64,000 nt of DNA from Escherichia coli O127:H6 str. E2348/69 (GTDB lineage Bacteria > Pseudomonadota > Gammaproteobacteria > Enterobacterales > Enterobacteriaceae): the NCBI RefSeq assembly GCF_000026545.1, contig NC_011601.1, one strand, 5' to 3'. This document shows, piece by piece, positions 7,577 to 10,500 of the stretch; the stretch's first letter is position 1; the number at the start of each line of letters is the position of its first letter. Made by a program: the position numbers.

Positions 7577-10500
7577 TAACAAAAGCAATTTTTCCGGCTA
7601 TCTGTATACAAAAACGCCGTGAAGTTTGAGCGAAGTCAATAAACTCTCTACCCATTCAGGGCAATATCTCTCTTGCAGGTGAATGCAACGTCAAGCGATG
7701 GGCGTTGCGCTCCATATTGTCTTACTTCCTTTTTTGAATTACTGCATAGCACAATTGATTCGTACGACGCCGACTTTGATGAGTCGGCTTTTTTTTGCCT
7801 GTTATTTATCAGCGTCTACCCTTTAAGAGTCCACCCAATGACCGGAGGGAAATATGACGACACTTATTTATTTGCAAATTCCTGTCCCTGAACCGATTCC
7901 TGGCGATCCTGTTCCAGTACCTGATCCGATCCCTCGCCCGCAACCCATGCCTGACCCACCACCCGATGAAGAACCGATTAAATTGTCGCATCGTGAGCGT
8001 AGATCTGCGAGGATACGCGCCTGCTGACTTTGCGTCGATGACCACGAGAATAGATTGTGACCGCTTTTTCTACCCTGAATGTTTTGCCTCCCGCCCAACT
8101 CACAAACCTTAATGAGTTGGGTTATTTAACCATGACGCCGGTGCAGGCCGCCGCGCTTCCGGCGATCCTTGCCGGAAAAGATGTTCGCGTGCAGGCGAAA
8201 ACCGGCAGCGGCAAAACGGCGGCTTTTGGCCTCGGCTTGTTACAGCAAATTGATGTGTCGCTATTTCAAACCCAGGGTTTAGTGCTGTGTCCTACGCGTG
8301 AACTGGCGGATCAGGTGGCAGGTGAATTGCGTCGGCTGGCGCGTTTTCTGCTAAATACCAAAATTTTGACGTTGTGCGGTGGTCAACCGTTCGGTATGCA
8401 GCGTGATTCGTTGCAACATGCGCCGCATATTATCGTGGCAACGCCGGGCCGTTTGCTGGATCACCTGCAAAAAGGCACTGTATCACTGGATGCGTTGAAT
8501 ACGCTGGTGATGGATGAGGCCGACCGCATGCTGGATATGGGATTTAGTGACGCCATTGATGATGTCATCCGTTTTGCGCCAGCATCTCGGCAGACACTTC
8601 TGTTTTCGGCAACCTGGCCGGAAGCCATTGCCGCAATCAGCGGAAGAGTGCAACGCGATCCTTTAGCGATTGAAATTGACTCAACAGATGCTCTGCCACC
8701 TATTGAACAACAATTTTATGAGACATCCAGCAAAGGCAAAATTCCTCTGTTGCAACGGTTATTAAGCTTGCATCAGCCATCCTCTTGCGTGGTGTTTTGC
8801 AATACCAAAAAAGATTGCCAGGCTGTCTGTGACGCGCTGAATGAAGTAGGGCAAAGTGCATTGTCGTTACACGGCGATCTGGAGCAACGCGATCGCGATC
8901 AGACCCTGGTACGTTTTGCTAACGGTAGCGCCCGTGTACTGGTCGCGACTGATGTTGCTGCGCGTGGTCTGGATATAAAATCGCTTGAGCTGGTGGTGAA
9001 CTTTGAGCTGGCGTGGGACCCTGAAGTTCATGTACATCGCATCGGTCGTACAGCTCGTGCAGGAAATAGCGGTCTGGCGATCAGTTTCTGTGCCCCGGAA
9101 GAAGCACAGCGGGCCAATATCATTTCTGACATGTTGCAGATAAAACTTAACTGGCAAACGCCGCCAGCAAATAGTTCCATTGTGCCGCTGAAAGCAGAAA
9201 TGGCAACGTTGTGTATCGATGGCGGGAAAAAAGCCAAAATGCGCCCGGGTGATGTATTAGGTGCGCTGACAGGAGACATCGGGCTTGATGGCGCAGATAT
9301 TGGCAAAATTGCCGTGCATCCGGCGCATGTCTATGTCGCGGTGCGTCAGGCTGTTGCTCATAAAGCATGGAAACAGCTACAGGGTGGGAAGATTAAAGGA
9401 AAAACGTGCCGGGTGCGGTTATTAAAATAATGAAATGTTGAATTGCAGGGGGCAAGAGTAAACATCTTCTTCGGCATTGCCGGATGTGACGCTGGCCGCG
9501 TCTTATCCGGCCTCCATAAGAGTAGCCCGATACGCTTGCGCATCGGGCGCTATCCGGGTTATTTCACTTCAACCACATTCAGCCGTAACTCATCCAACTG
9601 ATTTTCATCTTCTTCAGGCTGCCAGCCCGCTGGTTGTAGTGGGATCTCTTCGCGATCAAACGCCAGATCACCCCCGTTAACCACTTCAGAACCGTGGGTA
9701 ATGCCTTTGAAATCGAACAGGTTGGTATCGCACAGATGCGACGGCACCACATTCTGCATTGCGCTGAACATCGTCTCGATACGCCCCGGATAACGTTTAT
9801 CCCAGTCACGCAACATGTCAGCAATCACCTGACGTTGCAGGTTAGTCTGTGAACCGCACAGGTTGCACGGAATAATCGGGAACGCTTTTGCATCGGCAAA
9901 GCGCTGAATATCTTTCTCGCGGCAGTAGGCCAGCGGACGGATCACGATATGTTTGCCATCATCGCTCATCAGTTTCGGAGGCATACCTTTCATCTTGCCA
10001 CCGTAGAACATATTTAAGAACAGCGTTTGCAGGATATCGTCACGATGGTGACCCAGTGCGATCTTCGTCGCCCCTAGTTCCGTTGCGGTACGATAAAGGA
10101 TACCGCGACGCAGGCGAGAACACAGTGAGCAAGTGGTTTTGCCCTCCGGAATCTTCTCTTTCACGATACCGTAAGTGTTCTCTTCAACAATCTTGTACTC
10201 AACGCCCAGCTTTTCAAGATACTCGGGCAGAACGTGTTCCGGGAAGCCCGGTTGCTTTTGATCGAGGTTAACAGCCACCAGCGAAAAATTGATTGGCGCG
10301 CTTTGCTGCAAATTGCGCAGAATCTCCAGCATGGTATAGCTGTCTTTACCCCCGGAGAGGCAAACCATGATGCGATCGCCTTCTTCAATCATATTGAAGT
10401 CAGCAATGGCTTCGCCCACGTTACGACGCAGACGTTTTTGTAATTTGTTCAGGTTGTATTGTTCTTTCTTTGTAATTTGTTGATTTTCTTGCATTATTTC

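What the first reader, a model, noticed from the sequence alone, without database searches (positions are those of the whole stretch)
7769..8056. Small proline-rich ORF with a strong ribosome-binding site between zntB and dbpA
A 57-codon ORF (MTTLIYLQIPVPEPIPGDPVPVPDPIPRPQPMPDPPPDEEPIKLSHRERRSARIRAC) starts 6 nt after GGAGGG and follows a clean terminator. The run of Pro-Asp/Glu-Pro repeats would be a strong ribosome-stalling, EF-P-dependent sequence. I recall a candidate small RNA (C0343) being reported in this K-12 intergenic region, so the transcript may have been seen but treated as non-coding. The ORF is compositionally unusual and sits directly before the GTG-initiated dbpA, so it could act as a translated leader.
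Basis: partly seen in the sequence, partly recalled or inferred. Interest (0 to 1): 0.4.

Follow-up and report, generated by a model that had tools for sequence, protein, structure and literature searches.

The report
Known small protein gene ynaL
The proline-rich 57-codon reading frame is real and translated, but it is the already annotated E. coli small-protein gene ynaL (once mistaken for the small RNA C0343); its function, possibly as a translated leader for the ribosome-assembly helicase gene dbpA, is still untested.

Summary
The ORF at 7854-8027 (+) is exactly as described. It is not new. It is ynaL (b4743), annotated 'proline-rich small protein YnaL' in RefSeq, with its own Pfam family (PF23677). 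The protein was detected by chromosomal epitope tagging (VanOrsdel 2018) and ribosome profiling. The former sRNA candidate C0343 had already been re-read as this 57-aa protein (Washietl 2011, as cited by Neuhaus 2017). The 'clean terminator' upstream is the 3' end of the FnrS sRNA.

The frame, SD and ATG are conserved. dN/dS is 0.13 in frame, against 2.5 and 4.7 out of frame. Gene order zntB-fnrS-ynaL-dbpA is universal.

One observation I did not find described in the searchable literature: selection changes character along the ORF. The N-terminus is free. The Pro/Asp/Glu core, including the invariant DPPPD, is constrained as amino acids. The last third is constrained as nucleotides in two near-invariant blocks, even in the 15 species that stop before the second block.

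This fits a nascent-peptide leader acting on dbpA, but it does not prove one. I found no switching RNA structure, terminator, promoter or CsrA link, and no EF-P data exist. Novelty: already known. Interest: low to moderate.

The parts
7626..7639 (+). FNR-box-like palindrome TTGAG-CGAA-GTCAA, centred about 42 nt upstream of the FnrS 5' end (context, not part of ynaL)
   Evidence: Read directly from the sequence. The match to the FNR consensus TTGAT-N4-ATCAA is from established knowledge and was not tested here.
7675..7796 (+). fnrS small regulatory RNA, including its intrinsic terminator (hairpin 7769-7788 plus T-run). This is the 'clean terminator' of the finding.
   Evidence: Rfam RF01796, 134.8 bits against a gathering score of 60. 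Terminator scan. K-12 annotates ncRNA fnrS b4699. Found upstream of ynaL in every locus that had enough flank.
7815..7822 (+). Conserved block TCTACCCT in the fnrS-ynaL spacer. A possible weak -10 (TACCCT) lies 16 nt after TTGCCT (7793-7798). This is inference only.
   Evidence: 81-species alignment. It falls below the threshold of the sigma-70 scan.
7844..7849 (+). Shine-Dalgarno sequence GGAGGG of ynaL
   Evidence: Sequence. GGAGG core in 51 of 74 species, with a 5-nt spacer in 54 of 74.
7854..8027 (+). ynaL CDS, 57 aa, proline-rich small protein YnaL (b4743; WP_001296046.1)
   Evidence: Pfam PF23677, 136.9 bits against a cut-off of 27. Identical protein listed as detected in PMC6001520.
7854..7895 (+). 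Variable N-terminal segment (about 14 codons). Its sequence is not conserved, but its length is loosely conserved: the PPP-containing motif (measured to the P33 codon) begins 30-36 codons from the ATG in most species.
7905..7973 (+). Pro/Asp/Glu-rich core (D18 to E40) constrained at the amino-acid level. All four Pro codons are used while Pro is kept.
   Evidence: Per-codon table. dN/dS 0.13 with dS 1.26 for 16 codons not used in the search pattern, against 2.5 and 4.7 in the other frames. C 43% and G 17% over 7896-7970.
7953..7967 (+). Invariant D-P-P-P-D (codons 34-38), a consecutive-proline motif of the class that needs EF-P
   Evidence: Invariant in the 25-protein alignment drawn from an independent protein search. 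Its invariance in the DNA loci is partly imposed by the search pattern. EF-P dependence is from established knowledge and was not tested.
7974..7991 (+). Block 1, CCGATTAAATTGTCGCAT (codons P41 to H46), constrained at the nucleotide level
   Evidence: pS 0.086 against 0.61 in the core. Mean column identity 0.96. ATT and TCG are 84/84.
8001..8021 (+). Block 2, AGATCTGCGAGGATACGCGCC (codons R50 to A56; contains the rare codons AGA, AGG, AUA and a potential GCG-AGGAUA-CGC hairpin). It is constrained as nucleotides, not as protein.
   Evidence: pS 0.004 and pN 0.039. Column identity 0.98. Same offset in 82 of 85 loci. Conserved in the 15 species whose ORF stops upstream of it.
8045..8049 (+). Conserved weak SD-like CGAGA of dbpA, 7 nt before the GTG
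   Evidence: Alignment.
8057..9430 (+). dbpA, the ATP-dependent RNA helicase DbpA. GTG start is conserved in 77 of 79 species.

Best explanation
The ORF is ynaL, a known, translated, Enterobacteriaceae-restricted small-protein gene. It sits immediately downstream of the FnrS terminator and 29 nt upstream of dbpA. That identification is shown (about 0.99).

My preferred mechanism is inferred, not shown. ynaL is the first cistron of a ynaL-dbpA transcript and acts mainly in cis, through the act of being translated. Its Pro/Asp/Glu core ends in the invariant DPPPDEEP and is kept by amino-acid-level selection because, as a nascent chain, it slows or destabilises the ribosome. Passage would depend on EF-P and possibly on the ABCF factors, bL31 or Mg2+.

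The paused ribosome's leading edge would reach block 1, which is nucleotide-invariant. Through block 1 and block 2, by a contact I could not identify, or through exposure of the C-rich Pro-codon RNA to Rho, ribosome progress on ynaL would set how much dbpA is transcribed or translated. dbpA initiates at GTG with a weak SD. This would tie the level of a 50S-assembly helicase to the state of the translation machinery.
For: Identity:
- RefSeq annotation in E2348/69 and K-12.
- Pfam PF23677, 136.9 bits.
- Identical 57-aa sequence detected as an SPA-tagged protein and present in tetracycline ribosome profiling.
- C0343 reassigned to a 57-aa protein, with RCV 2.49.

Selection on translation:
- dN/dS 0.13 (dS 1.26) in frame, against 2.5 and 4.7 out of frame.
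- Pro codons vary freely at the third position.
- SD and ATG are conserved.

Leader-like architecture:
- Only the central segment is constrained as protein. The N-terminus varies in sequence.
- The C-terminus is dispensable as protein. There are in-frame stops before block 2 in 15 of 85 species and extensions past it in about 10.
- Directly downstream lie two nucleotide-invariant blocks (pS 0.086 and 0.004).

Linkage and dbpA initiation:
- Linkage to dbpA is universal.
- The distance from the core to the dbpA start is fixed at 103-112 nt.
- dbpA uses GTG in 77 of 79 species and has a weak SD.
- No terminator or sigma-70 promoter was detected between ynaL and dbpA.

Other:
- AlphaFold predicts no fold (pTM 0.22, no secondary structure).
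- Precedents exist for Pro or acidic leader ORFs and for EF-P-dependent transcription-translation coupling: MgtL, mgtP, mgtQ and SecM.
Against: - No experiment links ynaL to dbpA or to EF-P. Nothing was found in the searchable literature.
- Full-length YnaL-SPA accumulates, so ribosomes do finish the ORF and a stable product exists.
- No covarying helix was found. The best candidate is an invariant 6-bp pairing of block 1 with the dbpA GUG, and about 1.5 such pairings are expected by chance (my estimate, not a tool result).
- Simulated ribosomes on ynaL do not change the predicted accessibility of the dbpA start in 75 species.
- Folding energy is ordinary (z -0.32).
- The ynaL stop lies anywhere from 50 nt inside dbpA to 63 nt upstream of it. 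This argues against strict termination-reinitiation coupling.
- IRD is reported to be largely silent beyond about residue 20-30.
- Conserved non-Pro residues (R28, Q30, M32, I42, K43) could equally reflect a binding surface of a trans-acting peptide.
- Synteny within one bacterial family is weak evidence for functional coupling.
Confidence: 0.4

Rival explanations
1. YnaL is a free-standing, trans-acting small protein. An extended polyproline-II, acidic peptide would bind a partner, for example DbpA, a ribosome-assembly intermediate or another protein with a Pro-peptide-binding surface. Its position next to dbpA would reflect operon-type functional association rather than cis regulation. The nucleotide-invariant blocks would then be a separate dbpA 5'-UTR element that happens to overlap the ynaL 3' end.
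For: - A stable tagged protein is detected.
- A 25-residue stretch is nearly invariant, including non-Pro residues R28, Q30, I42 and K43.
- dN/dS is 0.13.
- There is locally confident extended conformation over residues 21-40.
- VanOrsdel et al. themselves suggest a function related to dbpA.
Against: - The C-terminus is evolutionarily labile: truncated in 15 of 85 species and extended in about 10.
- The N-terminus is unconstrained.
- No fold is predicted, and there is no homology to any characterised domain. The only other family hit is a compositional match to the TonB Pro-rich spacer (E 2.9e-4, 20.8 bits against a cut-off of 315).
- No partner or phenotype is reported.
Confidence: 0.3
2. The locus is a non-coding small RNA (C0343) and the ORF is incidental.
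For: C0343 was historically listed among E. coli sRNA candidates and was still used as an sRNA in overexpression screens. The 3' third of the ORF is constrained at the nucleotide level.
Against: - Strong in-frame purifying selection with saturated synonymous change.
- Conserved SD and ATG.
- Protein detected and ribosome footprints present.
- No Rfam family matches apart from FnrS.
- C0343 is reported as removed from Rfam.
- Folding energy is ordinary.
Confidence: 0.03
3. ynaL is translated, but its conservation mainly serves transcription. Ribosomes covering the C-rich, G-poor Pro-codon stretch would simply shield a Rho loading site, so that transcription reading through or starting after the FnrS terminator reaches dbpA. 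This is generic polarity control, with no specific peptide function.
For: - 7896-7970 is 43% C and 17% G.
- EF-P loss causes Rho-dependent loss of expression downstream of polyproline motifs (abstract).
- No terminator or promoter was found between ynaL and dbpA.
Against: Shielding would not require an invariant amino-acid sequence. The observed pattern is the opposite: synonymous sites are free and amino acids are fixed. rut sites have no strict sequence requirement, so this does not explain blocks 1 and 2.
Confidence: 0.12

Closest known systems
YnaL (b4743; Pfam PF23677 'Protein YnaL-like'; RefSeq 'proline-rich small protein YnaL') of E. coli K-12
   Same: The 57-aa sequence is identical. 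The position between fnrS and dbpA is identical. The SD and start codon are the same.
   Different: Nothing. This is the same gene in strain E2348/69.
C0343, former E. coli sRNA candidate
   Same: It was reported from the same intergenic region and is cited as encoding this 57-aa protein.
   Different: It was originally interpreted as non-coding. It was later re-read as coding and is reported as dropped from Rfam. My placement of C0343's published coordinates inside the ORF (about window 7909-7983) is from memory and was not verified.
MgtL / mgtP / mgtQ leader ORFs of the Salmonella mgtA and mgtCBR loci
   Same: They are short ORFs upstream of a regulated gene. Their Pro and acidic codons make translation sensitive to EF-P, Mg2+ or bL31, and this controls the downstream gene.
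   Different: They are 8-17 codons long. Their alternative stem-loops, rut sites or attenuators are defined and experimentally shown. ynaL is 57 codons long, yields a detectable protein, and shows no identifiable switch structure.
SecM-secA arrest-peptide system
   Same: An upstream ORF has an amino-acid-constrained nascent segment ending at proline, followed by conserved RNA preceding the regulated gene.
   Different: The SecM stall exposes a demonstrably sequestered secA SD. Here the predicted accessibility of the dbpA start is about 0.48 and is insensitive to ribosome position.
TonB proline-rich spacer
   Same: The composition is similar, with alternating Pro and Glu/Asp/Lys (NCBIfam NF008084, E 2.9e-4).
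   Different: The score is far below the family cut-off (20.8 against 315 bits). The resemblance is compositional only, with no TonB domains.

Membership tests
YnaL family (Pfam PF23677) | Full-length match to the family HMM above the gathering score | tested here: met
   136.9 bits against a cut-off of 27, covering residues 1-57 of 57.
YnaL family (Pfam PF23677) | Same genomic position as K-12 ynaL (fnrS upstream, dbpA downstream, same strand) | tested here: met
   The same holds in all enterobacterial loci that had sufficient flank.
Protein-coding gene (as opposed to sRNA C0343) | Purifying selection in one frame, with conserved start and RBS | tested here: met
   dN/dS 0.13 against 2.5 and 4.7 in the other frames. 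ATG invariant and SD conserved.
Protein-coding gene (as opposed to sRNA C0343) | Experimental detection of the product | not testable with these tools
   Reported in the literature: SPA-tag immunoblot and tetracycline ribosome profiling, and RIBOseq RCV 2.49.
EF-P-dependent polyproline stalling sequence | Three consecutive prolines in a strong context | tested here: met
   D-P-P-P-D at codons 34-38, invariant in 25 of 25 diverse homologues. That an acidic context is 'strong' is from established knowledge (memory), not from a tool.
EF-P-dependent polyproline stalling sequence | Ribosome pausing or reduced output in the absence of EF-P | not testable with these tools
   ynaL and dbpA are not mentioned in the main text of the EF-P/EfpL profiling paper or the EF-P review that I searched.
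Regulatory leader / arrest peptide (SecM, MgtL, mgtQ type) | Nascent-peptide segment conserved at the amino-acid level, with unconstrained termini | tested here: met
Regulatory leader / arrest peptide (SecM, MgtL, mgtQ type) | Co-transcription with the regulated gene | tested here: inconclusive
   No terminator and no sigma-70 consensus were detected between ynaL and dbpA. No transcript mapping was available.
Regulatory leader / arrest peptide (SecM, MgtL, mgtQ type) | Alternative RNA structure, terminator or sequestered RBS that responds to ribosome position | tested here: not met
   No covarying helix. No change in dbpA start-region accessibility in 75 species. Fold z -0.32. The nucleotide-invariant blocks exist, but their role is unknown.
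Regulatory leader / arrest peptide (SecM, MgtL, mgtQ type) | Downstream gene expression depends on translation of the leader | not testable with these tools
   No data found.
Intrinsic ribosome destabilization (IRD) sequence | D/E/P-enriched window | tested here: met
   23 of 32 residues between positions 10 and 41 are D, E or P.
Intrinsic ribosome destabilization (IRD) sequence | Location close to the N-terminus, so that the exit tunnel is still largely empty | tested here: inconclusive
   Enrichment starts at about residue 10, but the densest part (residues 33-41) lies where IRD is reported to be mostly silent.
CsrA-regulated mRNA | CsrA crosslinking or expression change in a csrA mutant | tested here: not met
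   In the Potts 2017 supplementary tables dbpA reads 'No/No/No/No ... NS'. The only CLIP peak at the locus is on fnrS.

The most novel reading that the evidence does not exclude
ynaL is a ribosome-state sensor for ribosome biogenesis. Its invariant Pro/acidic nascent segment would pause or destabilise the ribosome depending on EF-P, ABCF factors, bL31 or Mg2+. Through the two nucleotide-invariant blocks at 7974-7991 and 8001-8021, a conserved RNA element of unknown partner, that pause would set expression of the 50S-assembly helicase DbpA. This would be a new arrest-peptide or leader system linking translation-elongation capacity to large-subunit assembly, with an RNA element that fits no known family.
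Probability: 0.25. Interest if true: 0.6.

Novelty: already known. Interest (0 to 1): 0.22.

Why it matters
As a discovery it does not matter, because the gene, its translation and the C0343 reinterpretation are all published and annotated.

What remains open is the function. DbpA's regulation is essentially undescribed, and YnaL has no assigned role. If the proline-rich peptide proved to be an EF-P- or ribosome-state-sensitive leader for dbpA, it would add a natural example of polyproline-based regulation to the few known ones (CadC, MgtL/mgtP, SecM). It would also link elongation capacity to ribosome assembly.

The split between amino-acid-level and nucleotide-level constraint, and the two invariant blocks, give concrete targets for mutagenesis.

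Tried and rejected
1. sRNA reading (C0343). Only FnrS matches Rfam. The coding signature is strong. Rejected as the sole explanation.

2. SecM-like structural switch.
- RNAalifold and an exhaustive conserved-helix scan found only short, invariant, non-covarying helices.
- Constrained partition-function folding in 75 species showed no effect of ribosome position on dbpA start accessibility (0.475 baseline; 0.488, 0.488 and 0.471 with a ribosome placed).
- The E. coli fold has z -0.32.
- Not supported.

3. dbpA promoter inside ynaL. There was no sigma-70 hit. Manual comparison of blocks 1 and 2 with sigma-70, sigma-E, sigma-32, sigma-28 and sigma-54 consensus sequences, recalled from memory, gave nothing convincing on either strand.

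4. CsrA site (GGA in the AGGAUA loop of block 2). There is no CLIP peak on dbpA and its expression is not significantly changed. In addition, 12 species carry a C-to-A change that breaks the stem. Dropped.

5. Termination-reinitiation coupling. The gap from the ynaL stop to the dbpA start ranges from -50 to +63 nt. Unlikely to be the conserved mechanism.

6. Mimic of 23S rRNA hairpin 92 for DbpA autoregulation. This was compared only against rRNA sequence recalled from memory. The shared words fall in the variable spacer. Not pursued.

7. Repeated motif. Blocks 1 and 2 occur once each in the window.

8. Literature on ynaL function, on EF-P and dbpA, and on the locus tag b4743. Nothing was found. 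The RNAcode paper itself is not held in the library and is cited only through Neuhaus 2017.
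Full report
**What is there.** The window matches E. coli E2348/69 at 100% over the 481 nt compared. ORF listing confirms a 57-codon ATG ORF at 7854-8027 (+) with exactly the quoted translation. It lies between zntB (6596-7579) and a GTG-initiated dbpA (8057-9430). GGAGGG is at 7844-7849. The spacer to the ATG is 4 nt (5 nt from the GGAGG core), not 6. The 'clean terminator' (hairpin 7769-7788 plus T-run) is the 3' end of the FnrS small RNA (Rfam RF01796, 7675-7792, 134.8 bits). 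K-12 annotates this as ncRNA b4699.

**It is a known gene.**
- A megablast against 5,426 complete E. coli genomes finds the region in 5,392 of them, and nearly all listed records annotate 'ynaL' under the match, either as 'proline-rich small protein YnaL' or 'protein YnaL'.
- K-12 carries it as ynaL, b4743, YP_009518775.1.
- The protein matches Pfam PF23677 'Protein YnaL-like' end to end (136.9 bits against a cut-off of 27).
- VanOrsdel et al. 2018 (PMC6001520) list the identical 57-aa sequence between fnrS and dbpA. It is among 36 small proteins they detected by chromosomal SPA tagging and immunoblot. They note that it was also a positive in tetracycline-inhibited ribosome profiling, and they remark on its adjacency to dbpA.
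- Neuhaus et al. [quoted passage not shown] They say this validates Washietl et al. 2011 (RNAcode), who showed that C0343 encodes a 57-aa protein, and that C0343 was removed from Rfam.

A protein search returned 162 homologues. All that carry an organism name are Enterobacteriaceae: Escherichia, Salmonella, Citrobacter, Enterobacter, Klebsiella, Raoultella, Kosakonia, Leclercia, Lelliottia and others. A degenerate DNA pattern for P-D-P-P-P-D-x-x-P-I-K, scanned over one genome per species, gave 87 loci, 86 of them enterobacterial.
- Gene order zntB-fnrS-ynaL-dbpA is found wherever the flank allows.
- The frame is open in all but one locus. That exception is L067, one of the two Leclercia adecarboxylata genomes.
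- The ATG is invariant, and a GGAGG-type SD sits 5 nt upstream in most species.
- For 16 codons upstream of the search pattern, which are therefore not conditioned on it, dN/dS is 0.13 with dS 1.26. This dS is similar to dbpA's 1.40.
- The two alternative frames give 2.5 and 4.7.
- Invariant prolines use all four CCN codons.
- The 'would refute' condition of the finding is therefore not met. The frame is conserved and footprints are reported.

**Observation not found described in the literature I could search.** Constraint changes character along the ORF.
1. The first 14 or so codons vary freely in sequence. The distance from the ATG to the PPP-containing motif (counted to the P33 codon) is 30-36 codons in most species.
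2. Residues 18 to about 40 (DPVPxPDPIPRPQPMPDPPPDEE) are constrained as amino acids.
3. From codon 41 onward the constraint is on nucleotides.
   - Block 1 (7974-7991, CCGATTAAATTGTCGCAT) has pS 0.086.
   - A 9-nt spacer of fixed length but free sequence follows (pS 0.56).
   - Block 2 (8001-8021, AGATCTGCGAGGATACGCGCC) has pS 0.004, with column identity 0.98.
   - Block 2 sits at the same offset in 82 of 85 loci.
   - It is retained in the 15 species where an in-frame TAG, TAA or TGA ends the ORF before it. About 10 species read through the usual stop, some of them into dbpA.
   - The C-terminal 'RSARIRAC' is therefore conserved as RNA or DNA, not as protein.
4. dbpA keeps a GTG start in 77 of 79 species, preceded by an invariant weak SD, CGAGA.

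**What the blocks are not.**
- There is no sigma-70 consensus and no terminator between ynaL and dbpA.
- No Rfam family matches.
- No covarying helix was found. The best candidate is an invariant 6-bp pairing of GUCGCA (7985-7990) with UGUGAC (8056-8061, which includes the dbpA GUG). By my own rough estimate (not a tool result), about 1.5 such pairings would be expected by chance.
- Placing a ribosome at PPP, over block 1 or over block 2 does not change the predicted accessibility of the dbpA start in 75 species (about 0.48 in every case).
- The E. coli fold is unremarkable (z -0.32).
- Neither block recurs in the window.
- Block 2 can form a GCG-AGGAUA-CGC hairpin presenting GGA. However, dbpA has no CsrA CLIP peak and is unchanged in the csrA data of Potts 2017.
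- The blocks remain unexplained.

**Mechanism.** No study of YnaL function, and no link between ynaL or dbpA and EF-P, was found. AlphaFold predicts an extended peptide with no secondary structure (pTM 0.22). Only the central segment is constrained as protein, both termini are labile, and conserved RNA follows directly. This pattern resembles nascent-peptide regulators such as SecM, MgtL and mgtQ. DPPPD is a consecutive-proline motif of the EF-P-dependent class, which is established knowledge. The Pro-codon stretch is 43% C and 17% G. It could therefore load Rho if left uncovered, in line with the EF-P-dependent transcription-translation coupling of Elgamal et al. 2016.

I therefore favour a cis-acting, translation-dependent leader role for dbpA, at about 0.4. 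A trans-acting polyproline-II peptide is at about 0.3, and generic anti-polarity shielding is at about 0.12.

Several results count against the leader model:
- The tagged protein is stable and detectable.
- No switch structure was found.
- The stop-to-start gap ranges from -50 to +63 nt.
- IRD is mostly silent at positions 22-41.
- A 2026 proteomics paper reports both DbpA and EF-P as more abundant in exponential phase. This is only a correlation.

**Verdict.**
The claims that the ORF is real, translated and identical with C0343 are right. The leader and EF-P ideas are untested.
- Novelty is 'already known'.
- Interest is low to moderate. It rests on the unassigned function and on the amino-acid versus nucleotide split in constraint, which gives clear targets for experiments.

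Noticed in passing
window 7974-7991 and 8001-8021: Two near-invariant nucleotide blocks at the 3' end of ynaL (column identity 0.96 and 0.98 across 85 species; pS 0.086 and 0.004). They are separated by a 9-nt spacer of fixed length and free sequence. Block 2 is conserved even where it is untranslated. It matches no known RNA family, promoter, terminator or CsrA target.
   Followed up: yes
window 5197-6341 (-): dgcM (diguanylate cyclase) is annotated as a frameshifted pseudogene in E2348/69, whereas it is an intact CDS in K-12.
   Followed up: no
window 6535-6582 (+): A 15-codon small ORF, ynaN (labelled 'ydaN' in the E2348/69 record), lies 13 nt upstream of zntB. It is another annotated micro-ORF directly preceding a gene.
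   Followed up: no
window 7626-7639 (+): TTGAG-CGAA-GTCAA, an FNR-box-like palindrome centred about 42 nt upstream of the FnrS 5' end. This is consistent with FnrS's known FNR dependence.
   Followed up: partly
window 7793-7822 (+): In the fnrS-ynaL spacer, TTGCCT (overlapping the end of the FnrS terminator T-run) and a conserved TCTACCCT block lie 16 nt apart. This could be a weak promoter for ynaL-dbpA, but it falls below the scan threshold, and the spacing is not kept in at least one species (L016).
   Followed up: partly
window about 10546 onward (-): A truncated tyrosine recombinase/integrase pseudogene lies next to ttcA. In K-12 the Rac prophage sits at this position (from memory), so it is probably a prophage remnant.
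   Followed up: no
L032:6414-6567 (E. coli E69): An in-frame 33-nt deletion removes 'EPIPGDPVPVP' from YnaL, probably by slippage between the repeated Pro-codon units. The frame and the core are kept.
   Followed up: no
L067:11893-12073 (Leclercia adecarboxylata NCTC13032): The N-terminal half of ynaL is out of frame, through a frameshift or a sequencing error. The other L. adecarboxylata genome in the set (L074) is intact.
   Followed up: no
L061:3465-4925 (Intestinirhabdus alba): fnrS and ynaL are about 1.26 kb apart instead of about 60 nt. Something is inserted between them, yet ynaL-dbpA stays intact.
   Followed up: no
L028, L068, L081 (Klebsiella oxytoca, K. grimontii, K. michiganensis): The ynaL frame lacks the usual stop and runs about 50 nt into dbpA in another frame, giving an 84-aa product.
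   Followed up: partly
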